From: Candidatus Harrisonbacteria bacterium
GTDB taxonomy: Bacteria > Patescibacteriota > Minisyncoccia > UBA6257 > 02-FULL-45-10c
NCBI GenBank assembly: GCA_016192685.1
Contig: JACPTS010000001.1
Span: 529,099 to 593,098 of the forward strand
Reading direction: 5' to 3'
Length of the DNA: 64,000 nucleotides
A program made the translations under genes and the position numbers. The notes under the pieces are model-generated. The model had not been told where the DNA came from, searched no databases, and worked only from the letters and a program-made list of their open reading frames with translations. Of the stretch, positions 1,123-29,086 are shown one piece after another. The number at the start of each line of letters is the position of its first letter. Position 1 is the stretch's first letter.

Positions 1123-1194
1123 GGGCAGTTAGTTTAATGGTAAAACGCTGCATTCACATTGCAGAGAGCATAGGTCCGATTCCTATACTGCCCA
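1123..1194 (+). tRNA. tRNA-Val (anticodon CAC)
   Basis: Manual cloverleaf. Acceptor GGGCAGT/ACTGCCC, D-arm GTTT/AAAC, anticodon stem CTGCA/TGCAG with loop TTCACAT, T-arm ATAGG-TCCGATT-CCTAT, discriminator A, no encoded CCA. Confidence 0.7.
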
Positions 1195-2741
1195 CAAGTA
1201 GTAGCTAAATTGAATATGGCGAGTTTACGGGTGCGGGGGTGACACAAGTAGTCCAACGGTTCGTTTAATACCGCTTGGACTATTTGTTTGTCTCTAATAA
1301 CTAATTTTTTAAAAAATGTTTTTGCCAGTAACGCTTTAAGTTCTGGCGAGGCCTTTTTATAGGCATAGTTGCAGTTTGCGGCCAACGCCAAAGCAATTTC
1401 AATTGTTTTTAAAACATTGGCAATTTTACTCTCTGATTTTGCTAATTCCTCGTTGAGTCTCTTTTCCTCGGTTTCTAAATCCACTTTAACGCTTTGAAAA
1501 AGTTCTAAATCGTTTTCGCTGGCTTTATTATCAATAAGTTGCAAAACAAGATTTTTCTTGCGTTGCTTAATACTTTCAATTTTTCCCAAAATGTCGGCAC
1601 GGGCTTTTTCATAAACTCCCTGCTCATCTTTAAATAAAGTTTTAATTCTATTTCTTATTTTTTCAACAAGGTTATTTGGCAATTGCACCACTTTAAGGAT
1701 TTCTGTGAATTGGTTTAAATAATCATTTTCTTGGCCATAGCTTTGATTACAATTAACCCGCTTACTGTGTTGCGATTTTAGGCAACGCAAATATCTAACC
1801 AAATCGCCATTTTTAAGAGTATGTTCCTCCACTGTCATTTTGCTGCCGCACTCACCGCAAAAAGCAATTGTTTTAAGTATTGAAAATAACCTGCGGTTGC
1901 GGCTACCGCCCCCCAGTCGGGCATCAAGTATTGCTTGTGCTTTTTCAAACAACCCCCTGTCCAAAAAAACTTCGTGCTTGCCGTTGGGGTTAATTAAACT
2001 GCCCCAATCAATAACGCCAATATAAAACTTATCCCGAAGCATTTTAGCTAAAAAACTGGTGTGCATTTTGCCGTTATTCTTTTTATGTTTCCGCAATGGG
2101 AACCCCTCTTTTTCTAAAACTTCAGTAAGGGTAGCAATTGAATAATTGCCAGTCGCAAAAAGTTCAAATGCTTTAATAACCCATTTGGCTTCTTGCCAGT
2201 TTATTTCAACCCACGCCCTAACTTTCCCCGTAGCAACTTTTTCCTGAACATTTTTATAGCCGTAAGGGGCTCGTGTAGGCCACCACCCCTCTTTTAATTT
2301 TTGATACATACCAGATTTAACCTTTTCAGCATTTTGCAAAGAAAAAAACTCAGCCACGGAGGATAGCACTCCTTCAAGCATTTGCCCCGAAGGGGTTTTA
2401 TCAGTTCCTTCGGTGGCCGAGCAAATCCTAATGCCGTGCTGTTCAAGGTCTTTTTTTATCAATGCAAAGTCAATGCGGTTACGAGCCAAACGGCTAATAT
2501 CATAAAATATAACCGCTTTAACGGTTTTGTCAGTTCGGCAACGCTCCCAAAGAACCCTAAATTGCGGGCGGTTGGCAGTTCTGGCACTTTCGCCTGCGTC
2601 AGTGTAAATATCCGTTGTTTCATCAACCCCATAGCCGTTTTGCTTGGCATATTCAAGACAACGCTCTTTTTGGGCGGGAATTGATAATCCTTTTTGGGCT
2701 TGGCGGTCAGTGCTAACTCGCAAGTAAATTAACGCCGTCAT
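1134..2741 (-). CDS. Large serine recombinase (integrase) of an integrative element
   Basis: N-terminal resolvase catalytic domain (ALIYLRVSTDRQ with catalytic Ser, IFYDISRLARN), long C-terminal recombinase/zinc-ribbon region (CGECGSKM...C), 535 aa. The 3' end overlaps tRNA-Val in antisense. Confidence 0.85.
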   Translation of the reverse strand: MTALIYLRVSTDRQAQKGLSIPAQKERCLEYAKQNGYGVDETTDIYTDAGESARTANRPQFRVLWERCRTDKTVKAVIFYDISRLARNRIDFALIKKDLEQHGIRICSATEGTDKTPSGQMLEGVLSSVAEFFSLQNAEKVKSGMYQKLKEGWWPTRAPYGYKNVQEKVATGKVRAWVEINWQEAKWVIKAFELFATGNYSIATLTEVLEKEGFPLRKHKKNNGKMHTSFLAKMLRDKFYIGVIDWGSLINPNGKHEVFLDRGLFEKAQAILDARLGGGSRNRRLFSILKTIAFCGECGSKMTVEEHTLKNGDLVRYLRCLKSQHSKRVNCNQSYGQENDYLNQFTEILKVVQLPNNLVEKIRNRIKTLFKDEQGVYEKARADILGKIESIKQRKKNLVLQLIDNKASENDLELFQSVKVDLETEEKRLNEELAKSESKIANVLKTIEIALALAANCNYAYKKASPELKALLAKTFFKKLVIRDKQIVQAVLNEPLDYLCHPRTRKLAIFNLATTCGQYRNRTYALCNVNAAFYH

Positions 2742-2744
2742 AAT

Positions 2745-3233
2745 TTATTTATAACAAACCTCTAATCCATAAAATATTCCGTCTATATTTTTTAGTGATT
2801 TTATGCGAAAAGGGTAGTTAGAATTATTGAGATTACTCGCTGTTCTCAATTTATTTTCTTTCCAATTTTCTCTTTTGGGATACACGCTTATTGCACAGCC
2901 AAGGCCACCAGCATCAATCAAGCGGCCACCTTCGTCATAAAAGATTCCTAATACAAGACCTTCTTTTTCCCATTCTGCCCAACCAACCTCATCTAAGGGA
3001 TAACCCTTGGGTTCTTCGCCACGAAGAGGTGAGCCAATAGCTGTTTTTATTTGAGAAAAGGATTTCCCAAAAAGAGAGGGGATATCAAATATTATTCCTT
3101 GAGTTGGTAATGGTGGTTGAGAATCGCCAGTTGATATAATCACAATAAATAGGATAAACAATGCAGCAAAGGTCATCGCACCAATAGCAAACTTTTTGCT
3201 TGGCCAAGTTTTATTTGAATTTTGTAATTCCAT
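2745..3233 (-). CDS. Hypothetical membrane-anchored protein (island cargo)
   Basis: N-terminal hydrophobic helix FAIGAMTFAALFILFIVIIS. No recognisable domain. Confidence 0.4.
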   Translation of the reverse strand: MELQNSNKTWPSKKFAIGAMTFAALFILFIVIISTGDSQPPLPTQGIIFDIPSLFGKSFSQIKTAIGSPLRGEEPKGYPLDEVGWAEWEKEGLVLGIFYDEGGRLIDAGGLGCAISVYPKRENWKENKLRTASNLNNSNYPFRIKSLKNIDGIFYGLEVCYK

Positions 3234-3296
3234 TTTATTTTTTTAATTATAATTGCGACCTTTTGGCTAAACCTTTTAGAAAATAAAAAGGGACAG

Positions 3297-3430
3297 CCAG
3301 AACCTGCAACCCACAGTATTGAAAGCCGTGAAGCTCCCAATTGTGGAGGTTTGGCTGCCCCTTTCTGCCCGCAATTGGGCTAAGTAGCAGCTCTTCACGG
3401 AAAAACAATACTGTAGGTTGCATTTTTATT
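3297..3430. repeat. Long imperfect inverted repeat / structured intergenic element
   Basis: tgcaacccacagtattg...ccgtgaag...caattg is mirrored by caattggg...cttcacgg...caatactgtaggttgca, giving arms of about 40 bp. Confidence 0.5.
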
Positions 3431-3489
3431 TTAACACCATATATTTTGATTAGTAAATTACTCCAAAATGTCTTTTGATAAACTTGGTG

Positions 3490-3852
3490 CTAATTTTCAC
3501 AAATTTTAATTGTTAATGGCGACTTTACTGCGGTGCGTAATACCACTCCTTTCTTCGCAAAATTAGTAATATAGTTTTGTAAGTAGTCATCCGTTACAGA
3601 GTTTTGGTCATAAACGATTAAAATCCGTCTAACAAATTCCGTGCTCAGCATTTCTTGAAGCTGATTTATCGTGCGGATATTTGCATCACCACATTCTTCA
3701 TCGGCAATACATTCGCTGATGTAAATATCCGTTTCTGGATTTATGTCAAAACCATTTTCCTTTGCGTATTCTAAACATTTCTCTTTTCGTAGCCCCAACG
3801 ATTCTTTGTGAGGCGCACATTTATTTAGGTAAATTAACGCTTTATTTTTCAT
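3490..3852 (-). CDS. Degenerate serine-recombinase catalytic-domain paralog (catalytic Ser replaced by Cys)
   Basis: ALIYLNKCAPHK...KCLEYAKENGFDINPETDIY aligns to the integrase N-terminus ALIYLRVSTDRQ...RCLEYAKQNGYGVDETTDIY, but the S-TDRQ motif is lost. 120 aa. Confidence 0.6.
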   Translation of the reverse strand: MKNKALIYLNKCAPHKESLGLRKEKCLEYAKENGFDINPETDIYISECIADEECGDANIRTINQLQEMLSTEFVRRILIVYDQNSVTDDYLQNYITNFAKKGVVLRTAVKSPLTIKICEN

Positions 3853-3857
3853 ATTTT

Positions 3858-4337
3858 TTAGTTATTAGCCAATATTTGCTTACGGGCATTATTTAATTTA
3901 TTAACAAAGTAATCAGCTTCATTTTGCGGTAATTGCTGCACTATTTCATATAAACTAAATTCTTTATTGTTATTGCTTTCTACTGGTTTTGGCGGCTCAA
4001 GCCGTAAAAGTTCGGCCTGCCCCCTTAAAAGTTTTTGCAGTGCATTCAATGCACCAATTTTGGCATTGCTATTATCCGCCTCACTAAAAACGCACCAGCA
4101 TTCTTTAATTGCCAAATCGTAAGCCAATACCTGATTACAGAAATAGCGGTCAAGGTTTAATTTTTTATTACGATTACCTACTCGCCGTGCGGCCACCCGC
4201 AAATATTCTTTGGCCGTTGCCCAGTTTTTAATTCCAAGCCGCCGCATTATTTGATATGGCTTTTTAACGCCTATTACAAATAAAGCTTCAGTTTCGTCTA
4301 ATAAATATTCTCGGTCTATGTTTTTATGATTGGCCAT
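3858..4337 (-). CDS. Hypothetical protein (island)
   Basis: 159 aa ORF in the leftward island block, no recognisable motif. Confidence 0.35.
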   Translation of the reverse strand: MANHKNIDREYLLDETEALFVIGVKKPYQIMRRLGIKNWATAKEYLRVAARRVGNRNKKLNLDRYFCNQVLAYDLAIKECWCVFSEADNSNAKIGALNALQKLLRGQAELLRLEPPKPVESNNNKEFSLYEIVQQLPQNEADYFVNKLNNARKQILANN

Positions 4338-4535
4338 AATGTTGGTTGGGTTTCCCCTAAATTGTGCAATTTTGGCACAATTTTACTTATAGAGTGCAAT
4401 TCTTGCACTATTTTTACTTGCTTTACTTTTAGTAAAGGATAGTATGCTAATTTTTAGCTTAAAATCTTGTTTTCTTTTTCTTGCCTGCCCGCAATGAGCA
4501 AACGAAAGTTTGCTCATTGCTTGCTTGTAAAGCAA
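4338..4535. promoter_or_regulatory. Intergenic cluster of inverted repeats (candidate operators or origin)
   Basis: aattgtgc-aattttg-gcacaatt, agtgcaa-ttc-ttgcact, and a perfect 13-bp inverted repeat gcaatgagcaaac-gaaa-gtttgctcattgc. Confidence 0.4.
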
Positions 4536-5030
4536 TTATTTGACGGTATTTTCTGGGTTATTCTCTGTAATATTTTGCCCATAATTGCAATTTGTTTTGT
4601 TTGTTTCTACAAATTGATTTGTGGCTTCTGACGGCTGGGCATTGGTTTTGCGTAACAATTCTAACAGTTTAATGACATTTATTTTAAAATGTCTTTTGGG
4701 CGGCACTCCCTCTTTTTTAACCTCTAAAATCCCTAATTGCTTCCATTTTTTAATTGCTGTGTCTTGCTCGCCTCGCGTTAGTTTTGTTTCTTGGGACATT
4801 TCCTTAATGGTTTTATAAATCCACCCGACCTTTTTCCCCTTTTCCCACCAAAAAAGCAATTGCGACATAAATAAACCAGCATTGGCACTTTTAGCTAATT
4901 CTGCCAATAAAGGGTTAAATGCTATAGGTTTTGCGGATAAGGCCTCTAACAATATCCTATTATAATTTTTGGGTAGTTTTCGGGTCATATTTTTTAGATT
5001 TTTTAATTTTTGATAGTGAGCCGTGCTCAC
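4536..5030 (-). CDS. RepA_N / replisome-organiser-like winged-helix protein (putative replication initiator)
   Basis: Motif LFMSQLLFWWEKGKKVGWIYKTIKEMSQETKLTRGEQDTAIKKWKQLGILE resembles RepA_N/DnaD-like N-terminal wHTH domains. Confidence 0.45.
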   Translation of the reverse strand: MSTAHYQKLKNLKNMTRKLPKNYNRILLEALSAKPIAFNPLLAELAKSANAGLFMSQLLFWWEKGKKVGWIYKTIKEMSQETKLTRGEQDTAIKKWKQLGILEVKKEGVPPKRHFKINVIKLLELLRKTNAQPSEATNQFVETNKTNCNYGQNITENNPENTVK

Positions 5031-5031
5031 T

Positions 5032-5052
5032 ATTTTGATAATGGTTTAAATC
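5032..5052. promoter_or_regulatory. 9-bp inverted-repeat candidate operator upstream of the RepA_N-like gene
   Basis: atagtgagc-cgt-gctcactat, directly 5' of the minus-strand start at 5030. Confidence 0.4.
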
Positions 5053-5139
5053 CTTTGCGACAAACACCAAAACACGAGCAATGGCATCAATTACCATTTC
5101 GGTTAAGACCCCCTTGTTATCGGGCTGATTTTCCATAAA

Positions 5140-5200
5140 TTAACGCCCCCAAGTAGCAGCCCGCCACCTTGAGGGCGTTAATTTATGGGAGCTGCTACTT
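5140..5200. repeat. Nested hairpin with aagtagcagc/gctgctactt arms
   Basis: ttaacgccc...gggcgttaa nested with aagtagcagc...gctgctactt. The 10-mer aagtagcagc also occurs at about 3383, and a near copy (aagtagtagc) lies just 3' of tRNA-Val. Confidence 0.4.
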
Positions 5201-5270
5201 TTTCAAAATTAAAAAGGGCTATATGCCCTTTATACACCCACTTTTTATTTAGCCCCGCCAACAATTGTTA

Positions 5271-6077
5271 CTATTGTTGTCCGTTAATATCAATATCAAA
5301 CCATTGTTTAATTAACTTTTTAATACGCTTAAATGCATTACCGACAGCTCCCGCCGTTGTTTTTAGTTCTTTTGCAATTTCACGGGCTGTAACTTGGTTA
5401 TATCTAATAACTACATCTTTTTTATATTCCTTTTCCAAGCCCCGAAGTTTTTTGGGAGAATAAGTGCCGCTCTTTTTAGCTATCACTAAAAAGCTGGACG
5501 GTAAATAATCCTTGCGCCTAACTGGATTTCCAATTCTTTTAATCAGCTTGTCAAAAATAACTAAATCTCTTTTAAATTGTTTTCGTGAGCGTATTGGTAG
5601 TGTTGTTTCTTTGGAAAAATAAAGTTTCTGTAAGTTTTTTAAATCATTTAAAGCCAGTTTTATTTCTTCTTTGTCTAAAAGGGCAAAAGTTTTAATAGAT
5701 AAATAATCAACCTCGCCGCTTTTTGGCTGGTGCTCAATAACAAAATTATAAACAGGGGGCACAATTTTATTTTTTAGAATGTAAGCCCTCAACCCATCGC
5801 CAAACAAGTTGATAAGGTGATAAGGCAATTTAAATTTTCGCCCCAATTGTTCTAATTGATTGCCGAATTTTAAATTGTCTTCTTTTTCATTAAGGGCTCG
5901 CTGCCAATTTGCCATTTGTTCGTCAGTAATAATACCGCTGCTGGGTATGTTGAATTGTTGTCTAATCGCGACGGCTTCTTTCTGGAATTGGGGTAATCTA
6001 ATCAATAATTCAAGCCGCATTCGGTTACGAAATGCGGCAGAACCCAAATTGATTGGTTTTTCGCGGCGGGCTGCCAT
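5271..6077 (-). CDS. Hypothetical protein with C-terminal HTH (sigma-70 region-4-like)
   Basis: C-terminus VTAREIAKELKTTAGAVGNAFKRIKKL is a helix-turn-helix. 268 aa. Confidence 0.4.
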   Translation of the reverse strand: MAARREKPINLGSAAFRNRMRLELLIRLPQFQKEAVAIRQQFNIPSSGIITDEQMANWQRALNEKEDNLKFGNQLEQLGRKFKLPYHLINLFGDGLRAYILKNKIVPPVYNFVIEHQPKSGEVDYLSIKTFALLDKEEIKLALNDLKNLQKLYFSKETTLPIRSRKQFKRDLVIFDKLIKRIGNPVRRKDYLPSSFLVIAKKSGTYSPKKLRGLEKEYKKDVVIRYNQVTAREIAKELKTTAGAVGNAFKRIKKLIKQWFDIDINGQQ

Positions 6078-6170
6078 ACAGGCATAATTTAAGGGACTGT
6101 ATCCAAAAAATCAATATACTACCAGCTTGTCTTAAGTAATTTTATACGATAAAATAAAAGCACTTAAAAA

Positions 6171-6359
6171 ATGATTTCCAACGAGGCACTAAAAGAATTT
6201 AAGAAAATTTGGCTTGAAGAAAAAGGCACAGAAATTTCTGATGCGGAGGCAATGGATGAAGCATCTAATCTTTTGACTTTGTTCAATGCTGTTTATCGCC
6301 CCGTGAAAAAAGAGTGGCTGGAAAACCAACCAGAGGAAAAAGGAGATAAAAAATTATGA
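6171..6359 (+). CDS. Small hypothetical protein (first gene of cargo operon)
   Basis: 62 aa, acidic. Its stop overlaps the next start (ATGA), consistent with translational coupling. Confidence 0.35.
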   Translation: MISNEALKEFKKIWLEEKGTEISDAEAMDEASNLLTLFNAVYRPVKKEWLENQPEEKGDKKL

Positions 6360-6961
6360 TTATAGACTTCCCAAAAATCAAAGAAAATTTACACAAAGGA
6401 ATGGAAATTTTCTTACGACAAGAAATTAACCGTAAAGCTCCTTTTGCGGCAACGATTGGCAAACACTTCTTTCACGAAGGAGATAAGTCCTCTTACGAAA
6501 CAGTTGACCGTGAAAAAAAAGCTCTTGATTTTAAACGAGGCGAGAGTCAATTTACGGTAACTCGTGATGAAATGAATAAGTTGACCATAAAAGACATAAT
6601 TCAAAAAGTTCAAGGTATCGCAGAAGATATGGCGGGACAAATAGAGCGTAATCTATTCCAAACAATGAACGAAACTATTGAAAAGTCTGGCAATACAATA
6701 CCTGGTAATCCGCCGTTCTCGCCAGAAGCATTTTTGAAGGGTCTGGAAATGGTTGAAATTGATTTTGATGAGGATGACCGCAACAAACCTCAACTTCCCA
6801 CGCTGGTGATGCACCCAGACCTTGCGAAGAAAGCCAAAGAGCAGGAAGCCAATATGACAGCAGAGGAAAAGAAAGCCTTTGACGAAAAGATGAAGGCGAT
6901 GATAGATAAGAAATATGATGATTTTCTCACCAGAGAAGCCAAAAGAAAATTGGTGGACTAA
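6356..6961 (+). CDS. Hypothetical protein (cargo operon)
   Basis: 201 aa, charged/coiled C-terminus, no recognised domain. Confidence 0.4.
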   Translation: MIIDFPKIKENLHKGMEIFLRQEINRKAPFAATIGKHFFHEGDKSSYETVDREKKALDFKRGESQFTVTRDEMNKLTIKDIIQKVQGIAEDMAGQIERNLFQTMNETIEKSGNTIPGNPPFSPEAFLKGLEMVEIDFDEDDRNKPQLPTLVMHPDLAKKAKEQEANMTAEEKKAFDEKMKAMIDKKYDDFLTREAKRKLVD

Positions 6962-8615
6962 ACTCCTCTCCCGCCTTCTTGGAACGAAACCAGCAATTCA
7001 GGAGAGCGTGAAGGAGTCCAACCCGTTTTTGGAGCGAACCATTGAAAATTGGTTAAACTCCGCAAATGAAATGGGTTATTTAATGCCCTTCAGCCAGCTT
7101 CTGTTAAGCGAGGAATTTAGTATTTGTCATACCTCACGTCAAAATGCTTTTGAGCAAGGCAAAGATGTGGTTGCGCTTGATAAGCACGGAAGCTCCCACG
7201 CCTTCCAACTAAAGGGCGGCAACATTACGCATAGCAGATGGCTTAAGGAAGTTAAAGGAGAGATTGAGGAATTGATTGATTTGGCTATTGAGCACCCATC
7301 AGTCAGTAAAGGGAGTAAGCACAAATCTTATTTGGTAACCAACGGTGAATTGGAAGACACGGTGCGAGTGGCGATTGATAATCTTAATTCAAACAAGTGG
7401 AAGGAAAACCCTCTTGAAGTGATTACCTACGGACAACTTTTGAGGGGGTTTGTGGCATTAAGCAATACTTTCGTGCCGCAGAAAGTTGGAAACTATAAAA
7501 CATTCCTTGATTTATACTTCAGCAATGGCGGCGGGTTAATTGACGAAAGGATTTTCTCTGATTTTATCGCTGATGTCTTGAGACTGAAGGAAGACGGTTT
7601 GTTTAAAGAAGAACGGCGAAGAAACGTTGCGGCGGCTGTATTATATACGAGCTACATCCTTGCTCCGTTCAAAAAAGAAAATAATCACATCGCAATCATT
7701 CAAATTCTTACCCTGCTTGGGAGTCATATTATGGCTGTGGCAGAGAAGTTTTCCCTCCCAGAAAAGTATTGGGAAGAATCATTCAAAATCATACAAGACG
7801 AAATTTTCCTTACTGGAGGTAGATTACAGGAAGAAATTACAAACGATGGGCTGGTTACGCTCGTTAATTCAATGTGGGATGGCGAGATTGGTAGTTACAG
7901 AAGGCATCTGGCGGTGAGCTATCTATTCTCCTTCAAGTTAGCTCAACTTTTTGAAAAGAACACTCTGTGGAACAATGCGGTCAATGATGCGTTCTTCGTG
8001 AAGTTAAAAGATTCAATGAAACTGTGGGGCGAAGGCGCAATCTATTCATTGATTGTATGCTTCCTGTATGTGAATAGGGCTTTGAGTAAAAAAGAAGATG
8101 ATAGAGCATTTTCTCCGCTCTTTACTGCCCTTGAGGCAGTCTTAAAATTCAATAGTCCAGATAGTAAATTTGGTTTGTTGTCGCCATATTACGGAATCAC
8201 GTTTGCAATTAAGCGGCGGTATGGACAGCTTGAGGAACCGTTGGATGAAAAGTTCACTGGGCGGTCATTCTTGATACGGTCTCTGATTGACCTTTTGGCA
8301 CGCCACAGTAGGAGGTTAGAGTTGGAAAAGTATTGGAGAGCTATAACACATATAGCCCAAGACAAATTCATTCCTGAAGAATTATGGCAACATTTTACTT
8401 GGCATTGTGATAAGGGCGATAATCAATCCGAGTTTTCCAATCAAACTCAAAGCTGGATAGAGTTAGTAAAGAATGCTAATGCAATTGATTTTGACTCAAT
8501 ACCAAAAACCATTCAAACGCATCTGTCTTTTTTACCTCTTTTTTTACTTGTGTATCCGCACAGAATAAACAGTAATTATATAAAATTTTTAGATGAAACT
8601 GTTAAAAATGCCTAA
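6915..8615 (+). CDS. Large hypothetical protein with possible N-terminal PD-(D/E)xK-like nuclease motif (cargo operon)
   Basis: 566 aa. GKDVVALDKHGSSHAFQLKGG fits a D...(E/Q)xK pattern. The rest appears helical. The true start is uncertain because of a 46-nt +1 overlap with the upstream ORF. Confidence 0.4.
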   Translation: MMIFSPEKPKENWWTKLLSRLLGTKPAIQESVKESNPFLERTIENWLNSANEMGYLMPFSQLLLSEEFSICHTSRQNAFEQGKDVVALDKHGSSHAFQLKGGNITHSRWLKEVKGEIEELIDLAIEHPSVSKGSKHKSYLVTNGELEDTVRVAIDNLNSNKWKENPLEVITYGQLLRGFVALSNTFVPQKVGNYKTFLDLYFSNGGGLIDERIFSDFIADVLRLKEDGLFKEERRRNVAAAVLYTSYILAPFKKENNHIAIIQILTLLGSHIMAVAEKFSLPEKYWEESFKIIQDEIFLTGGRLQEEITNDGLVTLVNSMWDGEIGSYRRHLAVSYLFSFKLAQLFEKNTLWNNAVNDAFFVKLKDSMKLWGEGAIYSLIVCFLYVNRALSKKEDDRAFSPLFTALEAVLKFNSPDSKFGLLSPYYGITFAIKRRYGQLEEPLDEKFTGRSFLIRSLIDLLARHSRRLELEKYWRAITHIAQDKFIPEELWQHFTWHCDKGDNQSEFSNQTQSWIELVKNANAIDFDSIPKTIQTHLSFLPLFLLVYPHRINSNYIKFLDETVKNA

Positions 8616-8777
8616 TTGGCGACACTCATTAAGTTGGCCGCCGCCAATCGATTAAAGCAATTCTCAAACAAAATACGCTGGTATTCGCTTAATTTTTGCG
8701 ATAATGTATTGATGTATTCAATTAGTGTCCTGTTAAGCCCACCAAAATTAAAAAAGCTTCGTTAAACGAAGCTTTTT

Positions 8778-9449
8778 CTAATCTTCTTCTTCCTTCTTGG
8801 CTAATTCCGTGGCAACTATTGTAATCCCAATTTTTAACTGGCCAACGATTTTTTCCATATGCAATTCCGGTTGGGAATTTAAAGTTATTTCTACATAACC
8901 GTTTTTTGTGCCAGAGCTATTATAAGTAGTGACGCAAACCATTGATTTCCCATCTTTTTCAGTTTTTTGGAAAGTACCGTACATAGAGCCATCTTCTTTT
9001 TCAAAAAGGTTGTCAGTTTTAATTGTTTTTTCACCATTTTGTTCGGAATCATATATAAAGTTGAACAATTCAATTAAATTTTGGGCTTCTTCAGGCCGAA
9101 ATTCGGTATATTTCAGGAATTGAATGAAACTTTTACCATCCGTAGTATTTTCCAAAGAAAGCATTATTTTTTCTGGATGAAAATCCTCCGGACTAGCTGG
9201 CCAGGCATTAATTGAAACTATTTTTATTTTATTTTTTGGCTGCTCCTGATATTTTATTCTGATGCTTAATTCATCCCAATTTACGCCATAAAAAAACATT
9301 GCTATTTTTTGGTACCATTTTACATTTTGAAATTCAAGATCGTAATGAATTATTTGTTCTTTGAAATTTGTTTCTTCCGCGAAAGCAACGGCAGTGAAGC
9401 GGGAGATGAAGAAAAGAAGCAAGATTGGCGCGGTTATTAAGCGGGCCAT
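8778..9449 (-). CDS. Secreted hypothetical protein
   Basis: N-terminal signal peptide MARLITAPILLLFFISRFTAVAFA. 223 aa. Confidence 0.45.
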   Translation of the reverse strand: MARLITAPILLLFFISRFTAVAFAEETNFKEQIIHYDLEFQNVKWYQKIAMFFYGVNWDELSIRIKYQEQPKNKIKIVSINAWPASPEDFHPEKIMLSLENTTDGKSFIQFLKYTEFRPEEAQNLIELFNFIYDSEQNGEKTIKTDNLFEKEDGSMYGTFQKTEKDGKSMVCVTTYNSSGTKNGYVEITLNSQPELHMEKIVGQLKIGITIVATELAKKEEED

Positions 9450-9710
9450 TCCTTTTAAATTTTTATTTTAAATAACCTTTTTAAGGTTATTCTATTTTTA
9501 TGAAAATCACAAGTCTAATCAGGCGAAATTCCAGGGTGTGGATAACCTGCGGATAAAAAAGCCATTTTAGCTTTATTTTTTAGCCTATTTTGGCGCTGGC
9601 TGGCATTGTTAAATTTTTAATCCAAGTGGGGTACAATTAAATGGTAGTGGGGAATTGTGGATAAGTATGGGGATAGAGCGTCAATCAGGGGATAAGTTCC
9701 ACTCGCTGTA

Positions 9711-9842
9711 CCTTTCTTTCTATCGGCACCGGCGTCGCTTCGCTCCAGCGGCGAAGCGCGCCTACGCCTCGCTCCGAAAATTTTCGCTTCGCGAAAAACC
9801 AATCTTTTTGGAGCTCCGTAGTTGCCGTACAAAAGAAAGGTA
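9711..9842 (+). repeat. GC-rich palindromic repeat element, family A, copy 1
   Basis: Core cggcaccggcgtcg...cgcctacgcctcgctccgaaa...ttcgcttcgcgaaa...ggagctccgtagttgccg with terminal inverted repeat acctttct/agaaaggt. Sits at the right edge of the integrative element. Confidence 0.7.
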
Positions 9843-9894
9843 AGCTCGCTAATTGTTGTTAGTTGTGGGTCGTTAGTCATAAGTCATAAGTCAA

Positions 9895-10326
9895 ATGTTT
9901 ATAGGCGAATACCAACATTTAATAGACGATAAAGGCAGATTGGCGGTGCCGGCTAAATTTCGCGGCGCTTTGAAAAATGGCGCGGTAGTTACTCACGGAT
10001 TAGACCATTGTCTTTTTGTTTTTGAAAAAAAGGAATGGGGGATTTGGGCCGGTAAAATAAAAGCCATGCCGATTGCCAAATCTAATTCCCGGGCCTTTGG
10101 CCGTCTGATGCTTGGCGGCGCCATGGAAGCATCCTTGGATGTTCAGGGCAGAATTTTAATTCCTGATTATTTACGGGAATATGCCGGATTAAAAAAGAAT
10201 GCCATCGTTACCGGTTTGTATAATAGACTGGAAATTTGGGATGCCGAAAATTGGAAGAAATATAAATCAAAAACCGAAGCCTCATCTGAGGATATTGCCG
10301 AACAGTTGGATGGCCTCGGTATATGA
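9895..10326 (+). CDS. mraZ: Transcriptional regulator MraZ
   Basis: MFIGEYQHLIDDKGRLAVPAKFR, 143 aa, first gene of the dcw cluster. Confidence 0.9.
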   Translation: MFIGEYQHLIDDKGRLAVPAKFRGALKNGAVVTHGLDHCLFVFEKKEWGIWAGKIKAMPIAKSNSRAFGRLMLGGAMEASLDVQGRILIPDYLREYAGLKKNAIVTGLYNRLEIWDAENWKKYKSKTEASSEDIAEQLDGLGI

Positions 10327-11195
10327 CGCACATTCCAGTTCTTTTAAAAGAAGTAATTGAGCTACTTGACCCAAAAGAGAGGGAAATAATAATTGACGGC
10401 ACTGCCGGCAGCGGCGGCCACGCAAAAGCGGTATTGCAGAAAATTGGGGAAACTGGGCAACTTTTACTGGTTGATTGGGATAAAGAATCAATCGCTAATT
10501 TAAAAAAGGCATTTGCCAGCTATCCCAATGTTTTTATTATTCATGGTAATTATGCCGAATTGCCCGGCATCATGGCGGAAAATAATTTTCCTAAAGCGGA
10601 TGGCTTACTGCTTGATTTGGGGTTTTCTTCCGAGCAATTAGAAAAAAGCGGCCGGGGATTCAGTTTTCAAAAGGAAGAACCGTTATTGATGACTTATAGC
10701 GATGCCAGCGAATCGCTGCAAGAATTTTTGAAATACGTTTCCATTTCGGAATTAACGGATATCATCCGGAAATTCGGCGAAGAAAGATATGCCGAAAGAA
10801 TTGCCGAGGCAATTTATGCGAAGCGGCGGCAAATTTCCAGCAGCCAGCAATTAGGAGAAATTATAAAAGAGGCGGTTCCTAAAAATTATGAACGGGGCCG
10901 CATTCATCCGGCTACCAGAACTTTTCAGGCTTTACGGATTTATTTAAATAAAGAATTAGAAAATTTGGAAAAAGTCTTAAGCGCGCTGGATCAAATTTTA
11001 ACGCCCGGCGGCCGAGCAGTTATTATTTCCTTCCATTCTTTAGAGGATAGGATTGTAAAAAATTATTTTAGAGAATTAGCTAAAAAAGGTCGAATAAAAA
11101 TTATTACTAAAAAACCAACAATGGCGAGCCAAGAGGAAATTAGCCAAAATCCTCGTTCCCGATCCGCTAAACTCCGAGCCGCCATTATTATCTAG
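10323..11195 (+). CDS. rsmH: 16S rRNA (cytosine1402-N4)-methyltransferase RsmH
   Basis: IPVLLKEV...DGTAGSGGH...DLGFSS SAM-MTase motifs, following mraZ. Confidence 0.9.
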   Translation: MTHIPVLLKEVIELLDPKEREIIIDGTAGSGGHAKAVLQKIGETGQLLLVDWDKESIANLKKAFASYPNVFIIHGNYAELPGIMAENNFPKADGLLLDLGFSSEQLEKSGRGFSFQKEEPLLMTYSDASESLQEFLKYVSISELTDIIRKFGEERYAERIAEAIYAKRRQISSSQQLGEIIKEAVPKNYERGRIHPATRTFQALRIYLNKELENLEKVLSALDQILTPGGRAVIISFHSLEDRIVKNYFRELAKKGRIKIITKKPTMASQEEISQNPRSRSAKLRAAIII

Positions 11196-11197
11196 CC

Positions 11198-11497
11198 ATG
11201 ACTATTATTGAGCCAGCAAAAAATAATTATATTAGTGAATTTTTATATATCGGACTATTAATTTTAATGTCAGCCGCCTTCAGCATCTATTTTTATAATT
11301 TAAATGTTAATTTAAAATACCAAATTAGCCTGCAGGAGAAATCTTTGCAGCAATTAGAAGCGGACAATGCCGATTTAAAGAACCAGTTTTATCAGATTCT
11401 TGATTCTAAAAATCTTGCCGTCATTGTTAAAAAACAAAATTTAATCTCCGATAAAAATCCGGATTATTTTGAGCACAAAATTTTTGCTTCAATGTGA
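11198..11497 (+). CDS. FtsL-like small membrane/coiled-coil cell-division protein
   Basis: 99 aa with one TM and a coiled coil, positioned between rsmH and ftsI. Confidence 0.5.
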   Translation: MTIIEPAKNNYISEFLYIGLLILMSAAFSIYFYNLNVNLKYQISLQEKSLQQLEADNADLKNQFYQILDSKNLAVIVKKQNLISDKNPDYFEHKIFASM

Positions 11498-13128
11498 TGA
11501 AATTCCGCCTTTTTCTTATAATTTCTTTTTTCTCTCTTTTAAACGCTACCTTGTTTTTTAAACTTTATGACCTCCAAATTGAAAAAAAGGAATACTACGC
11601 GAAGAAAGCCGCTTCCCAGCATCGTTTAGCTGGTTTTTTAGAGCCGCAGCGCGGCAATATTTATTTTACGGATAGGAATAATAATTTAATTCCAGCGGCC
11701 ATGAATAAAGCTTATCAAGTTATTTTTTCCGTTCCCAAAGAGATTCAAGATCCCGCCCTAACTGCCGCCTCGCTGGCTTCGGCGGCTGCTTTGGATAAAG
11801 AGAAATTGGTAAAAATGTTCAGTAAGCCCGACGATGAATACGAATTATTTTTGCGCAAAGCCTCGTTATCCCAATTGGAAAAAATCCGCGAGCTTAATTT
11901 AAAAGGAATTTATGCTGACGAAGAAAATTTAAGATTTTATCCATTTAAAAATCAGGCTTCCCACCTGCTGGGTTTTGTGGGAATTGACCATGAAAATTCT
12001 TATCCGGCCGGAAAATACGGTTTGGAATTTTATTATGATGAAAAACTTAAAGGCGAAGCCGGCCGATTGGAAACTAACCGGATTATTGACCCGATTTCCG
12101 GAGAAAATCTTTATTTGACGATTGATTCTAACATTCAAATCCGGGCGGAAGAAATTTTATTTAATTTAATCCAAAAATATAAAGCCGAGCGGGGAATGGT
12201 CATAGTGCAGGAGCCTAAAACCGGAAAAATTTTAGCCATGGGCGTTTATCCGAATTTTGACCCGAATAATTACGCGGATTATAAGGTGGAAAATTTTTTG
12301 AATCCAGCCCTGCAGTCGGTTTTTGAGCCGGGGTCAGTAATGAAAGTGGTTACCATGTCTGCCGGGATTGACGCCAAGAAATTCACTCCGGAAACTACGG
12401 TTTATGATTCTGGTTCTCTTACTTTGGATAGCCGGACAATCAAAAATTGGGATAATAAAGCCCACGGCAAAGTAACCATGACTGAAGTGATTGAGCAGTC
12501 CATTAATATTGGAGCGGCGCAGGCGGCAAAAATTATCGGAAAGGACCTTTTTTATAATTATTTGGTAAAATTCGGATTCGGAGAAAAAACCGGCATCGGC
12601 CTGCCGGGAGAAGTGGTTGGCAGCCTCGGCAATTTAAAATCCAGCTTCCGGGATATTAATTTTGCCACTGCCGCTTTCGGCCAGGGAGTGGCGGTTACGC
12701 CGATCCAGATGATTAATTCTTTTTCTGCCATTGCCAATGGCGGAGTTTTAATGAGGCCGTATTTAAATGCCGATGAGGGTTCCAAAGTGATTCGCCGGGT
12801 TATTTCGGAAGAAGCGGCCAGAGCAGTAACTAAAATGATGATTTCCGCGGTAAAAAAAGCAGCCATTGCCCAGATTCCGAAATTTGATATTGCCGGTAAA
12901 ACCGGCACTGCCCAAATCCCGGATTTAAAAAGAGGCGGCTATCTTGAAGAATTTATCCATACTTATATCGGATTCGCGCCGGCTTTTGACCCGAAATTCA
13001 CTATTTTAATCCGGATTGATAAACCGGTTGGCGCGCCTTTAGCCGGCTTAACGGTCGTGCCGGCTTTCCGGGAATTGTCAGAATTTATTTTGAATTATTA
13101 TAACGTCCCGCCAGATTACAATGAATAA
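11494..13128 (+). CDS. ftsI: Penicillin-binding protein transpeptidase (FtsI/PBP2-like)
   Basis: Dimerisation domain plus transpeptidase domain. Contains a SVMK (SxxK) motif and a KTGTA motif. Confidence 0.85.
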   Translation: MMKFRLFLIISFFSLLNATLFFKLYDLQIEKKEYYAKKAASQHRLAGFLEPQRGNIYFTDRNNNLIPAAMNKAYQVIFSVPKEIQDPALTAASLASAAALDKEKLVKMFSKPDDEYELFLRKASLSQLEKIRELNLKGIYADEENLRFYPFKNQASHLLGFVGIDHENSYPAGKYGLEFYYDEKLKGEAGRLETNRIIDPISGENLYLTIDSNIQIRAEEILFNLIQKYKAERGMVIVQEPKTGKILAMGVYPNFDPNNYADYKVENFLNPALQSVFEPGSVMKVVTMSAGIDAKKFTPETTVYDSGSLTLDSRTIKNWDNKAHGKVTMTEVIEQSINIGAAQAAKIIGKDLFYNYLVKFGFGEKTGIGLPGEVVGSLGNLKSSFRDINFATAAFGQGVAVTPIQMINSFSAIANGGVLMRPYLNADEGSKVIRRVISEEAARAVTKMMISAVKKAAIAQIPKFDIAGKTGTAQIPDLKRGGYLEEFIHTYIGFAPAFDPKFTILIRIDKPVGAPLAGLTVVPAFRELSEFILNYYNVPPDYNE

Positions 13129-26677: not shown

Positions 26678-27066
26678 ATAAACTTAAAAAAATATTAAGC
26701 AAAATGAAATCAGATGGAAAACCAGTCTGGCTATTTGCTTTTTTAAAAATGGATGAAATTATAGATAAATGGTCTTTAGTTATTTCTGCGCCTTGGATAA
26801 ATGAACAAAATCGTGATCAAGAATTTGAATATATTATCAATTTGTTAAAAGAAAATCTTAATGGCGAAGAATTATCTTCAATAGCTCGTATTAGTGTTTT
26901 GGCTAAAGATAGTCATTTAAGTCAAGAATTAATGAAGAAAAAAACAGGTGATTTAATAAAGGAAGAACAAATAAATGGCAACATTATTCACGAAGGTCAA
27001 ATATTGGAATCAAGCGTTGAGGCGCAGTGGCCATCAAATAATTTATTTGCTAAACAATCAAGTTAA
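26671..27066 (+). CDS. Hypothetical protein (overlapping partner of the HEPN-like gene)
   Basis: 131 aa. Overlaps the upstream gene by 7 nt. AT-rich. Confidence 0.3.
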   Translation: MVDKLKKILSKMKSDGKPVWLFAFLKMDEIIDKWSLVISAPWINEQNRDQEFEYIINLLKENLNGEELSSIARISVLAKDSHLSQELMKKKTGDLIKEEQINGNIIHEGQILESSVEAQWPSNNLFAKQSS

Positions 27067-27079
27067 ATTTACTTTTATA

Positions 27080-27192
27080 AAAATTTTCTGCTAATCTATA
27101 CCAAAACCGGCGTTATATTTTTTAAATAAAATTAATCAAACCGAGTCAAATCAGTTTATTATCGCAAAACCTGCCCTTGGCAGGTTTTGCGT
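27080..27192 (+). repeat. Intergenic repeat module, copy 1 (partial: ttctgctaa-ctataccaaaaccggcg plus terminal hairpin)
   Basis: Shares the ttttctgctaatctataccaaaaccggcg segment and the hairpin cgcaaaacctgcc-cttg-gcaggttttgcg with the modules at 27969 and 29087. Confidence 0.6.
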
Positions 27193-27289
27193 CAGATTAT
27201 TTTATGATAAAATTTATAGATTAAATTTATGTGTAAATCCGAAAATAATTTTGCTTATATTGACGGCGCTAATTTGCATAAAGGCATAT

Positions 27290-27350
27290 TGAAGGTCTAA
27301 AAAGAAAAAGCCCCCGGCGGATACGGATTCCGCAGGGGTCTTTTTCGTAG
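27290..27350. terminator. Bidirectional terminator-like hairpin
   Basis: aaaaag-cccc.ggcgga...tccgcagggg-tcttttt. Confidence 0.45.
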
Positions 27351-27426
27351 TGATACTTATACTATAGCATATTCAATGTTGAAGTCAATTGGGTGTTTTA
27401 GGAATAGTTTATATAAAATATAATTT

Positions 27427-27957: not shown

Positions 27958-27968
27958 ATCATTCGGTA

Positions 27969-28095
27969 AAAATTCCCTTTCCTGAAAATTTTCTTTTTGG
28001 TTATCTTCTCTAATTGTATCGAATGATTGAATAGTTTCAAAAATAAAATTTGCCCTTCTAAAAATTTTCTGCTAACCTATACCAAAACCAGCGGC
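27969..28095 (+). repeat. Intergenic repeat module, copy 2 (approximately 125 bp)
   Basis: aaattccctttcctgaaaattttctttttggtta(t/c)cttctctaattgtatcgaatgattgaatagtttcaaaaataaaatttgcccttctaaaaattttctgctaacctataccaaaacc is near-identical to 29087-29212. Confidence 0.8.
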
Positions 28096-28173
28096 AAAAA
28101 TAGCGTTTTTGCAATACAGTTATCCACCAAAGTTATTTATTACAGGTTAGTTATTATAGATTATCCGCAACAT

Positions 28174-29076: not shown

Positions 29077-29086
29077 TTTAAATAAA

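What the first reader, a model, noticed from the sequence alone, without database searches (positions are those of the whole stretch)
1123..9890. Approximately 8.7-kb integrative element next to tRNA-Val, between rplL and the dcw cluster
A large serine recombinase gene sits directly against tRNA-Val(CAC). A leftward block of small genes follows (degenerate resolvase paralog, RepA_N-like wHTH protein, HTH protein). Then comes a rightward 3-gene cargo operon and a secreted protein. The segment separates rplJ-rplL from mraZ, whereas rplL is normally followed by rpoB. Serine integrases leave only a 2-bp crossover, so no long direct repeat is expected. The right boundary is therefore inferred to lie between about 8620 and 9890, where repeat A copy 1 sits.
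Basis: partly seen in the sequence, partly recalled or inferred. Interest (0 to 1): 0.7.

Follow-up and report, generated by a model that had tools for sequence, protein, structure and literature searches.

The report
tRNA-inserted element that splits its integrase
A 7.5-kb mobile element sits at the end of a tRNA-Val gene in a Candidatus Harrisonbacteria genome; its serine integrase gene spans the element's own attachment site, so insertion detaches the last 41 codons, an arrangement previously described only for tyrosine integrases.

Summary
Two sister species have rplJ-rplL-tRNA-Val(CAC)-[208/220-aa gene]-mraZ with nothing in between. [quoted passage not shown]

Three corrections:
- The element is 7.5 kb, not 8.7 kb.
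- The 223-aa "secreted" gene is a host gene.
- The rplL-mraZ adjacency is ancestral, and "repeat A" is an unrelated dispersed repeat.

The new point is that attP lies inside the integrase ORF. Joining 8742 to 1196 restores an in-frame 558-aa protein. Its last 41 residues are homologous to the native C-termini of two unintegrated relatives (E 3e-14). In the integrated state these codons lie at the far end of the element (8612-8740, minus strand), and the ORF instead runs antisense into the tRNA.

Four related elements, in tRNA-Val, tRNA-Ala and tRNA-Arg genes, show the same split. Of the 46 closest homologues, 44 carry non-native tails. Relatives carry restriction-modification systems or an OLD-family protein with an SNase-domain protein. 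Here the cargo is a conserved two-gene module containing a FokI/Mrr-like nuclease domain, with no match to any known defence system.

Whether the tail swap regulates recombination is inferred, not shown.

The parts
1123..1195 (+). Host tRNA-Val(CAC), the target gene. It stays intact after insertion.
   Evidence: ARAGORN; Rfam RF00005, 71 bits. It is 100% identical to the tRNA-Val of the empty site in L183. A promoter-like site lies at 1082-1110.
1190..1195 (.). attL core GCCCAC: the last four acceptor-stem bases, the discriminator A and one more base. The crossover lies within it.
   Evidence: This is the only sequence shared by both junctions and by the empty sites. The equivalent 6-9-bp cores in relatives lie at the same tRNA position.
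1196..8742 (.). The integrative element, 7,547 bp counting one core copy.
   Evidence: Absent from L183/L184 and L186-L188, which are otherwise syntenic. Composition is an outlier. A Logan contig (L005) independently assembles window 1132-9790 at 100% identity.
1134..2741 (-). Integrated-state integrase ORF (Int', 535 aa). Residues 1-517 are encoded by the element and the core. The last 18 residues (QYRNRTYALCNVNAAFYH) and the stop codon are antisense tRNA-Val.
   Evidence: Pfam PF00239 6e-32, PF07508, PF13408; phrog_95 2e-89. PDB sequence matches to the catalytic domains of the TP901-1 integrase and other resolvase-family recombinases. C-terminal alignment.
8612..8740 (-). Detached 3' end of the integrase gene, int(C): G + LNRTLIEYINTLSQKLSEYQRILFENCFNRLAAANLMSVAN + stop. 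Its stop codon overlaps the stop codon of the 566-aa gene.
   Evidence: It is in frame with Int across the reconstructed attP, giving a 558-aa ORF. It is 54% identical (E 3e-14) to residues 517-553 of the 554-aa P0013. Homologous fragments lie at the far ends of four related elements.
8737..8742 (.). attR core GCCCAC.
   Evidence: The sequence to its right (CAAAATTAAAAAAGC plus a hairpin) aligns with the tRNA 3' flank of the empty sites.
2745..3233 (-). 162-aa protein with an N-terminal hydrophobic segment. Function unknown.
   Evidence: ORF. No hit in Pfam, PHROGs, PADLOC or NCBIfam.
3490..3852 (-). 120-aa paralogue of the integrase catalytic domain that lacks the catalytic serine (NKCAP in place of RVSTD). 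Candidate regulator.
   Evidence: BLASTP against Int: 38% over 82 aa, E 9e-12. DNA repeat 2603-2670 / 3720-3787 at 71%. tblastn hits only integrase N-termini elsewhere.
3858..4337 (-). 159-aa protein of unknown function.
   Evidence: ORF. No family hits.
4536..5030 (-). 164-aa protein resembling the N-terminal domain of replication initiators or helicase loaders.
   Evidence: phrog_9773 (replication initiation O-like) 3.7e-29; phrog_6493 (DnaD-like helicase loader) 4.6e-14.
5271..6077 (-). 268-aa protein. Only weak, sub-threshold similarity to sigma-70 region 4 at its C-terminus.
   Evidence: NCBIfam hits at E 0.03-0.13, far below the cut-offs. A 21-bp hairpin at 5133-5188 lies just downstream.
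6171..6359 (+). 62-aa first gene of the cargo operon. It is not conserved alongside the pair elsewhere.
   Evidence: ORF. Absent upstream of the pair in L190.
6356..6961 (+). 201-aa partner protein of the cargo module, from a large uncharacterised family.
   Evidence: 1,135 cluster representatives at E <= 1e-3, nearly all about 200 aa. 29% identity (E 2e-34) to the gene preceding the p566 homologue in an Acidobacteriota MAG.
6915..8615 (+). 566-aa cargo protein: an N-terminal PD-(D/E)xK (FokI/Mrr-like) nuclease domain plus a large helical domain. Candidate defence effector.
8750..8778 (.). Host bidirectional terminator hairpin. Before insertion it followed the tRNA directly.
   Evidence: Terminator scan. 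The equivalent hairpin lies immediately 3' of the tRNA in L183 and L186.
8778..9449 (-). Host 223-aa gene with a signal-peptide-like N-terminus. Not part of the element.
   Evidence: Positional orthologues in both empty-site species.

Best explanation
Window 1196-8742 is a 7,547-bp integrative element in a Candidatus Harrisonbacteria (CPR/Patescibacteria) chromosome. Its large serine recombinase inserted it at the extreme 3' end of tRNA-Val(CAC).

Shown:
- Sister species have the site empty.
- The junctions share only GCCCAC, and the tRNA is left intact.
- The element's attachment site lies inside the integrase ORF. In the circular form the gene would encode 558 aa, ending in a conserved 41-aa tail.
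- Insertion leaves that tail's codons at the opposite end of the element. The ORF then reads antisense into the tRNA, picking up 18 unrelated residues and a stop codon.
- This is a family trait. Relatives sit in tRNA-Val(GAC), tRNA-Ala(CGC, GGC, UGC) and tRNA-Arg(GCG) genes with the same geometry. Four of them keep an intact, in-frame tail fragment at their far end. Two relatives are found in the unsplit state with no tRNA nearby.
- All catalytic and DNA-binding domains (catalytic domain, recombinase domain, zinc ribbon, coiled coil) lie upstream of the split.

Inferred:
- The element excises, since both gene pieces are intact, and may replicate briefly through its initiator-like protein.
- The tail swap makes the integrated-state enzyme differ in activity or stability from the free-state enzyme, as in phage Mx8. 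This would give a built-in record of integration state.
- Read-through from the tRNA promoter, whose terminator has been moved 7.5 kb away, would run antisense to int and damp its expression.
- The cargo slot holds restriction-modification systems or an OLD-family protein with an SNase-domain protein in relatives. Here it holds a 201-aa + 566-aa module with a FokI/Mrr-like nuclease domain, most likely a defence system.
For: Empty sites and boundaries:
- Empty sites. L183/L184 and L186-L188 run rplJ-rplL-tRNA-Val-[208/220 aa]-mraZ-rsmH-ftsL-PBP-murF.
- The 223-aa gene has orthologues there.
- Core repeat and reconstructed attB/attP.

Split integrase gene:
- Restored 558-aa ORF. Tail homology to P0013 at E 3e-14.
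- P0013 locus L189 and L093 have the gene contiguous and no tRNA.
- Far-end tail fragments, all in frame, in L090, L182, L169/L170 and L171.

Family pattern:
- tRNA overlap verified at the DNA level in L089, L090, L094, L169, L171, L172-L181 and L182.
- 44 of the 46 closest homologues carry non-native tails, mostly with antisense-tRNA signatures.
- Domain layout of the integrase.
- Cargo of relatives: Tsp45I + N6_N4_Mtase, BsuBI/PstI + DNA methylase, OLD-like TOPRIM protein + SNase-domain protein.

This element:
- p566 fold and motif. Conserved p201-p566 pair.
- Composition outlier.
- No strong plus-strand terminator directly 3' of the tRNA.
Against: - No empty site or circular junction was seen within the same species. 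Logan contigs run unbroken through both att cores, and the attP junction is absent from viral contigs. Current mobility is therefore inferred only from intact gene pieces.
- The sister species are fairly distant (the 223-aa orthologue is only 30-34% identical), so the insertion is not dated.
- No recombination directionality factor was identified.
- The functional effect of the tail swap is untested. The AlphaFold2 confidence for the tail is low (pLDDT 53-71).
- P0032's element showed no detectable tail fragment within 10 kb.
- The cargo has no PADLOC, Pfam or NCBIfam match, so "defence" rests on fold and on position.
- The antisense read-through idea rests on a consensus scan only.
Confidence: 0.85

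Rival explanations
1. The anatomy is as described, but the split is a neutral by-product of genome compaction. The attachment site merely overlaps the dispensable 3' end of the gene, and both protein forms behave the same.
For: All recognised domains lie upstream of the split. The integrated-state tails vary freely in length, from 0 to more than 60 residues, and in sequence, so the enzyme tolerates arbitrary C-termini. The element is tightly packed: the stop codons of int(C) and p566 overlap.
Against: The native tail is conserved in eight sequences whose integrase bodies are only about 45-65% identical to the window integrase, with a clear motif: [ST]-[LI]-[LI]-E-Y-[IV]-x-x-L ... W-E-N-C-Y. 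It stays open and in frame in all four integrated relatives examined. That argues for selection on its function in the free state.
Confidence: 0.3
2. The element is a fixed, no longer mobile island. It is an old insertion now kept only for its cargo.
For: No attB or attP alleles are visible in any of the assemblies that carry it. The integrated-state integrase has lost its native tail. No directionality factor was recognised.
Against: Both integrase pieces are intact ORFs with invariant catalytic residues. The core repeats are identical. Composition is still foreign. The same integrase lineage is found at several different tRNA genes and in the free state.
Confidence: 0.2
3. The segment is a small prophage or phage satellite.
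For: PHROG hits to a phage integrase family and to phage replication-initiator families.
Against: No capsid, portal, terminase or lysis gene appears in 7.5 kb. No relative above 31% identity exists among 2.9 million viral contigs. Relatives carry restriction-modification cargo, and one free-state relative lies near a TrwB/TraG-type coupling protein.
Confidence: 0.05
4. The junction at the tRNA is an assembly chimera made through a conserved tRNA k-mer.
For: Logan contigs break inside the tRNA at 1161|1162 and overlap by only 30 nt.
Against: L005 carries the tRNA 3' part, the element, the 223-aa gene and the mraZ leader on one contig. Sister species place the same tRNA between rplL and that gene. 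The acceptor-stem halves from the two contigs pair perfectly. The integrase-to-tRNA geometry recurs in independent assemblies of relatives.
Confidence: 0.02

Closest known systems
Large serine recombinase (serine integrase) elements such as phiC31, Bxb1, A118/LI, TP901-1 and SPbeta
   Same: Same domain series: catalytic domain, recombinase domain, and a zinc ribbon with an embedded coiled coil. The junctions share only a short core with no long direct repeat. The integrase gene lies at the edge of the element.
   Different: The target is the 3' end of a tRNA gene. tRNA use is rare for serine integrases: 14/297 = 4.9% in PMC7192596, and "not known" in PMC4383910. The attachment site lies inside the integrase ORF, which I did not find described for any serine integrase. 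The hosts are CPR bacteria. No directionality factor was recognised.
Myxococcus phage Mx8 IntP/IntX
   Same: attP lies within the 3' part of the integrase coding sequence, so integration gives the gene a new 3' end and an altered C-terminus while the enzyme body is kept (PMC6070905; Tojo et al. 1996, cited in PMC4383910).
   Different: Mx8 Int is a tyrosine recombinase of a tailed phage. Here the enzyme is a serine recombinase of a 7.5-kb non-viral element, and the behaviour is a trait of a whole family spread over several tRNA targets.
SSV-type (type I, "suicidal") archaeal integrases
   Same: The attachment site is translated as part of the integrase. Integration into a tRNA gene leaves int(N) and int(C) at opposite ends of the element. 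Close relatives switch between tRNA targets (PMC7253208).
   Different: Those are tyrosine recombinases, stated to be restricted to archaea so far, and they are split into two inactive pseudogenes. Here the split removes only 41 of 558 residues and spares every recognised domain.
tRNA-gene genomic islands of the Islander type
   Same: Insertion at a tRNA gene with the gene kept functional, and a small cargo-carrying island.
   Different: There is no displaced tRNA fragment. Only 6 bp are duplicated because the crossover is at the last bases of the gene, so methods based on tRNA fragments would miss it.
PD-(D/E)xK restriction or defence nucleases (FokI cleavage domain, Mrr, MspJI/AspBHI) - for the cargo
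   Different: No sequence-family membership (Pfam, PADLOC and NCBIfam all negative). It is fused to a roughly 380-aa helical domain and always paired with a 201-aa protein of unknown fold.

Membership tests
Large serine recombinase (serine integrase) | N-terminal resolvase-type catalytic domain with the nucleophilic serine and conserved arginines | tested here: met
   PF00239 at 6e-32 over residues 3-152. YLRVSTD is present; S10, R8, R84 and R87 are invariant or nearly so in 30-43 homologues. PDB sequence hits to the TP901-1 integrase catalytic domain and two other resolvase-family catalytic domains.
Large serine recombinase (serine integrase) | Recombinase domain plus a zinc-ribbon domain carrying a long coiled coil | tested here: met
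   PF07508 and PF13408. Four invariant cysteines: C295, C298, C320, C331. The AlphaFold2 model of homologue P0013 shows helices 356-404 and 409-455 inserted in the ribbon.
Large serine recombinase (serine integrase) | Short attP/attB with a 2-bp crossover, so no long direct repeats | tested here: inconclusive
   Only 6 bp (GCCCAC) are shared by attL, attR and the empty sites. An inverted GTATTCGA/TCGAATAC motif flanks the core in seven attP sequences. The exact dinucleotide cannot be fixed by sequence alone.
Large serine recombinase (serine integrase) | Separate recombination directionality factor for excision | not testable with these tools
   No element protein matches a known factor. Such factors are too diverse to recognise by sequence. 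Candidates are p120, p159 and p162.
Integrative mobile element (operational definition) | An empty target site exists in related genomes, with precise junctions | tested here: met
   L183/L184 and L186-L188.
Integrative mobile element (operational definition) | An excised circular form or conspecific polymorphism is observed | tested here: not met
   All contigs that carry it show the integrated state, with no graph branch at either core. The attP junction is not in viral contigs. Raw reads could not be examined.
Integrase with attP inside its own ORF (SSV type I / Mx8 IntP type) | The attachment site is translated, and integration separates the 5' and 3' parts of int to opposite ends | tested here: met
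   Unsplit relatives are shown.
Integrase with attP inside its own ORF (SSV type I / Mx8 IntP type) | Tyrosine recombinase chemistry | tested here: not met
   Serine recombinase domains only. It is therefore not a member of either family, only analogous in gene layout.
SSV type I "suicidal" integrase | The split yields two inactive pseudogenes | tested here: not met
   The split falls after residue 517 of 558, and all recognised domains remain in one ORF.
Islander-type tRNA island | A displaced tRNA fragment marks the distal end | tested here: not met
   There is no second match to the tRNA 3' half or to tRNA +/- 40 nt anywhere in the 64 kb. The same holds in L169, L171, L172 and L182.
Prophage | Virion structural, packaging or lysis genes | tested here: not met
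   No such hits in Pfam or PHROGs. No close relatives in IMG/VR.
Integrative conjugative or mobilisable element | Relaxase, coupling protein or oriT | tested here: not met
   None appears in the window element. A TrwB/TraG-like gene lies 2.5 kb from the free-state relative P0013, but this is not proof for this element.
Known anti-phage defence systems (PADLOC) | Match to a catalogued defence protein model | tested here: not met
   No PADLOC hit for any of nine proteins, even at E <= 1.
PD-(D/E)xK nuclease superfamily (p566 N-domain) | The alpha-beta-beta-beta-alpha-beta core with an acidic residue and (E/Q)xK on adjacent strands | tested here: met

The most novel reading that the evidence does not exclude
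This CPR family of serine integrases uses the position of its own attachment site as a one-gene directionality device. The 41-aa tail is made only from the circular form and is needed for, or tunes, attP x attB integration. Insertion swaps it for tRNA-encoded residues and places the gene under antisense read-through from the tRNA promoter, locking the element in. Because the core is just the last bases of a tRNA acceptor end, and the arms resemble T-loop sequence, single-base changes retarget the enzyme between tRNA genes. This would explain the Val/Ala/Arg spread among close relatives.
Probability: 0.3. Interest if true: 0.8.

Novelty: new variant of a known kind. Interest (0 to 1): 0.62.

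Why it matters
- **Recombination biology.** Integrases whose attachment site lies inside their own gene have been described only for tyrosine recombinases: the archaeal SSV type, stated to be restricted to archaea so far, and phage Mx8. A serine-recombinase family with the same layout would be an independent origin of that arrangement. It gives a tractable system to ask whether the layout controls directionality.
- **Annotation.** Gene callers report these integrases with spurious tRNA-antisense C-termini (44 of the 46 closest database entries). Island finders based on tRNA fragments miss them because only about 6 bp are duplicated.
- **CPR biology.** These elements are small, precisely delimitable vehicles that shuttle restriction-modification and nuclease modules between tiny genomes. 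The split gene gives a sequence-only way to find both of their ends.
- **Tools.** The family recognises short sites at conserved tRNA 3' ends and appears to retarget easily.
- **Cargo.** The p201-p566 pair is a widespread, unannotated nuclease module in a slot otherwise filled by defence systems, so it is a defence candidate worth testing.

Tried and rejected
- **Displaced tRNA fragment.** I looked for one as the right-end marker. There is none. This is explained by the crossover lying at the last bases of the tRNA.
- **Break in the Logan contig assemblies at 1161|1162.** I first took this for the crossover, in the anticodon loop. I rejected that because the empty sites place the junction at 1190-1195. 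The break remains unexplained. It is probably another organism's tRNA sharing a 30-mer.
- **Genome-collection scan with RplL.** The best hit was only 63-65% identical, so it found no close relative and the scan was wasted. The close relatives came from the protein search plus contig look-ups.
- **Inverted second tRNA-Arg in L090.** I considered it a sign of an invertible segment. I rejected that because the tail fragment places the element end 2 kb away from that tRNA.
- **Homologues of accessory and cargo genes in related elements.** None were found, so only the integrase is shared.
- **Pfam, PHROGs, PADLOC and NCBIfam on the cargo.** All negative.
- **Profile-versus-PDB sequence search for p566.** Chance hits only.
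- **Plasmid collection search for p566.** No match.
- **attP junction search and integrase search in viral contigs.** No match for the junction, and only distant integrase relatives (31% identity or less).
- **afdb50 fold library.** Unavailable.
- **Symmetry scoring of attP to fix the central dinucleotide.** Indecisive. The motif alignment places the axis on the third or fourth base of GTGGGC.

Full report
**What is in the sequence**

The window opens with rplJ (175-684) and rplL (692-1063), then a terminator hairpin and tRNA-Val(CAC) at 1123-1195.

A 535-aa ORF on the minus strand (1134-2741) carries the three domains of a large serine recombinase: Resolvase 6e-32, Recombinase, and Zn_ribbon_recom. 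It matches a PHROG integrase family at 2e-89. Its last 62 nt run antisense through the tRNA.

Further minus-strand genes follow:
- a 162-aa protein;
- a 120-aa paralogue of the integrase catalytic domain that has lost the catalytic serine;
- a 159-aa protein;
- a 164-aa protein matching replication-initiator or helicase-loader N-domains (phrog_9773, 4e-29);
- a 268-aa protein.

Then come a plus-strand operon of 62, 201 and 566 aa, a 223-aa minus-strand gene, and the mraZ-rsmH-ftsL-PBP-murF cluster.

RplL is 100% identical to a protein that NCBI labels as from a Candidatus Harrisonbacteria MAG, on a 608-kb contig.

**The empty site**

A protein search with RplL, followed by contig look-ups, found two sister species: L183/L184 (RplL 94% identical) and L186-L188 (91%).

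Both run rplJ-rplL-tRNA-Val(CAC)-[208/220-aa minus-strand gene]-mraZ-rsmH-ftsL-PBP-murF, with tRNA-Glu further on as in the window. The 208/220-aa genes are orthologues of the window's 223-aa gene (34% and 30% identity, E 3e-27 and 3e-21).

So the rplL/mraZ adjacency is native to this lineage, the 223-aa gene is a host gene, and about 7.5 kb are extra in the window.

The L183 tRNA is identical to the window's. Alignment gives the following:
- empty site: ...CTATACTGCCCAC|TAAAAAAAGCC + hairpin;
- window left junction: ...CTATACTGCCCAC|AAGTAGTAGC...;
- window right junction: ...CCTGTTAAGCCCAC|CAAAATTAAAAAAGC + hairpin.

The only duplicated sequence is GCCCAC (1190-1195 and 8737-8742). This is the last acceptor-stem bases, the discriminator and one more base. 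The element is therefore 1196-8742, 7,547 bp.

It is compositionally foreign. GC is 38.2% against 41.3%. Its tetranucleotide distance is 0.258, against 0.118 mean and 0.205 maximum for host segments of equal size.

**The integrase gene spans the attachment site**

In an alignment of 30 homologues, conservation stops at ...NEPLDYLC-x9-F-[DN]-L-x4-G. Beyond that point the tails differ in length and look like antisense tRNA, for example GPxRxRT and LYQLSYRP.

At the DNA level the ORF end overlaps a tRNA gene antisense in every related locus with enough sequence:

| Locus | tRNA gene overlapped |
|---|---|
| L089 | tRNA-Ala(CGC) |
| L090 | tRNA-Arg(GCG) |
| L094 | tRNA-Ala(GGC) |
| L169/L170 | tRNA-Val(GAC) |
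| L171 | tRNA-Ala(CGC) |
| L172-L181 | tRNA-Ala(CGC) |
| L182 | tRNA-Ala(UGC) |

The spacing between the F-[DN]-L codons and the tRNA 3' end is constant.

Two homologues, P0013 and P0015, instead end in ...G-PNRSILEYIKSLPQRMSKYQAVLWENCYNRLQAVALA.

Joining window 8742 to 1196, as in a circular form, restores an in-frame ORF of 558 aa. It ends ...FNLATTCG-LNRTLIEYINTLSQKLSEYQRILFENCFNRLAAANLMSVAN. This tail is 54% identical (E 3e-14) to the extreme C-terminus of P0013.

The tail codons lie at 8612-8740 on the minus strand, and their stop codon overlaps the stop codon of the 566-aa gene. Insertion therefore cuts the integrase gene after codon 517 and moves the last 41 codons to the other end of the element.

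**The split is a family trait**

Homologous, open, in-frame tail fragments lie on the integrase strand at the far end of four related integrated elements:

| Locus | Tail fragment | Integrase | Implied element size |
|---|---|---|---|
| L090 | 2643-2753 | 7513-9105 | about 6.4 kb |
| L182 | 1417-1527 | 10001-11569 | about 10.1 kb |
| L169/L170 | 3762-3848 | 10001-11560 | about 7.8 kb |
| L171 | 6-116 | 4536-6149 | about 6.1 kb; the contig starts at the core |

Each pair of junctions shares a 6-9-bp core at the same tRNA position. In integrase sense the cores are GTGGGC, GTGATC, GTGGACC, TAATGGGCG and GTGGAC.

In L189 (P0013) and L093 the gene is contiguous and no tRNA is present, which is the free-state configuration. 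L189 has the same GTGGGC core as the window, and a TrwB/TraG-type gene lies nearby.

Of the 46 closest homologues that carry the NEPLDYLC motif, 2 have the native tail and 44 do not. I checked the DNA for only the loci listed above. For the rest, the integrated state is inferred from the peptide.

Seven attP sequences aligned on the core share an inverted motif, GTATTCGA ... TCGAATAC, about 17-25 bp either side of the core. This motif resembles tRNA T-loop sequence. I record that resemblance as a lead, not a result.

**What the split leaves intact**

The AlphaFold2 model of P0013 (pLDDT 84.7) shows the usual catalytic domain, recombinase domain, and zinc ribbon with a roughly 100-residue coiled coil. 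A disordered linker follows, encoded by the core, and then two short helices form the tail at low confidence.

Unlike the archaeal "suicidal" integrases, the integrated-state protein keeps every recognised domain.

The tail is conserved across sequences whose integrase bodies are only about 45-65% identical to the window integrase. That argues it has a function in the free state.

My preferred reading is that the swap changes activity or stability, as reported for Mx8 IntP/IntX. This is an inference, and I give it roughly 0.4.

A second inference concerns transcription. In the empty site the tRNA is followed at once by a terminator hairpin. After insertion that hairpin is 7.5 kb away (8750-8778), and no strong plus-strand terminator follows the tRNA. 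Read-through from the tRNA promoter (1082-1110) would then be antisense to int.

**Cargo**

In relatives, the divergently transcribed block next to the far end holds one of the following:
- Tsp45I plus an N6/N4 methyltransferase;
- a BsuBI/PstI endonuclease plus a cytosine methylase;
- an OLD-family ATPase-TOPRIM protein plus an SNase-domain protein.

Here it holds p62, p201 and p566, none of which hits Pfam, PHROGs, PADLOC or NCBIfam.

p566 has 148 homologues in several phyla (Paceibacterota, Acidobacteriota, Rhodococcus, Agrobacterium), all unannotated. They share an invariant E-x-G-K-D ... Q-x-K motif.

p201 belongs to a family of more than 1,100 cluster representatives, nearly all about 200 aa long. 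In an Acidobacteriota MAG a 201-aa homologue (E 2e-34) precedes the p566 homologue with the same roughly 47-nt overlap.

The pair is therefore a conserved module. A defence role is inferred from its fold and its position, and was not tested.

**Is the element active?**

For activity:
- both integrase pieces are intact;
- the cores are identical;
- the composition is foreign;
- the lineage occurs at several tRNA genes and in the free state.

Against activity:
- every contig carrying the element is in the integrated state;
- Logan contigs run unbroken through both cores;
- the attP junction is absent from viral contigs.

The Logan break at 1161|1162 lies inside the tRNA, not at the core. I could not explain it. 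Another organism's tRNA sharing that 30-mer is the simplest guess.

**Comparison with what is known**

- Serine integrases rarely use tRNA genes: "not known" in PMC4383910, and 14/297 in PMC7192596.
- Integrases that extend across attP are cited only for Mx8 and SSV (PMC4383910). Both are tyrosine recombinases.
- The SSV type is described as restricted to archaea so far, and as splitting into inactive halves (PMC7253208).
- Mx8 integration creates a new 3' end and alters integrase behaviour (PMC6070905).
- A survey of 6,207 large serine recombinases from isolate genomes does not mention tRNA targets or attachment sites within the ORF (PMC10083194).
- My full-text searches found no description of a serine integrase with this layout. 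The library is incomplete, so this is absence of evidence only.

**Verdict**

As an integrative element with a serine integrase, it belongs to a known kind. The family-wide placement of attP inside the integrase ORF at tRNA 3' ends, in CPR bacteria, is a new variant of that kind. The cargo is an uncharacterised nuclease module.

Noticed in passing
Short-read graph contigs break inside it. It looks like a REP- or MITE-type host repeat.
   Followed up: partly
window 1132-1162: Logan contigs from at least 11 samples end at 1161, and the element contig starts at 1132 (a k-1 overlap). The break is inside tRNA-Val just 3' of the anticodon, not at the att core. The cause was not identified.
   Followed up: partly
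window 9537-9695: The mraZ leader contains repeated GTGG(G/A) boxes. Three of them (9647, 9657, 9667) are spaced 10 bp apart, which from my own knowledge resembles MraZ operator repeats.
   Followed up: no
window 5133-5188: A 21-bp, 95% complementary hairpin with a 14-nt loop lies inside the element, between the 268-aa gene and the initiator-like gene. It could be a terminator or a replication origin.
   Followed up: no
window 3490-3852: The element encodes a stand-alone copy of the integrase catalytic domain with the nucleophilic serine and key arginines replaced. No equivalent was found in related elements. It may be a regulator or dominant-negative partner.
   Followed up: partly
L090 598-677, 9083-9160 and 9203-9250: Three features surround this related element. 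A second, intact tRNA-Arg(GCG) lies inverted about 2 kb beyond its far end. The copy next to the integrase has two acceptor-stem mismatches. A 40-nt partial duplicate (28 nt of upstream sequence plus the first 12 nt of the tRNA) lies beside it. These may be traces of earlier rearrangements or an assembly problem.
   Followed up: partly
P0002 (no contig available): The closest integrase relative (84% identical) ends in a different antisense-tRNA peptide (GPSQNRTGASSLQMRCSATEL). This points to a switch of tRNA target between very close relatives.
   Followed up: no
L189 13609-14817: The free-state relative P0013 lies on an 18-kb contig with a TrwB/TraG-type coupling protein and RadC. This hints that some family members travel on conjugative plasmids in CPR bacteria.
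   Followed up: no
L190 5442-7656: The 201-aa + ~550-aa module occurs in an Acidobacteriota MAG with the same overlapping-gene layout, next to an unannotated 837-aa gene.
   Followed up: partly
window 27060-29226: Three repeats spaced about 1.0-1.1 kb apart (144 nt at 92% identity; 71 nt in three copies) suggest a tandem set of paralogous small genes.
   Followed up: no
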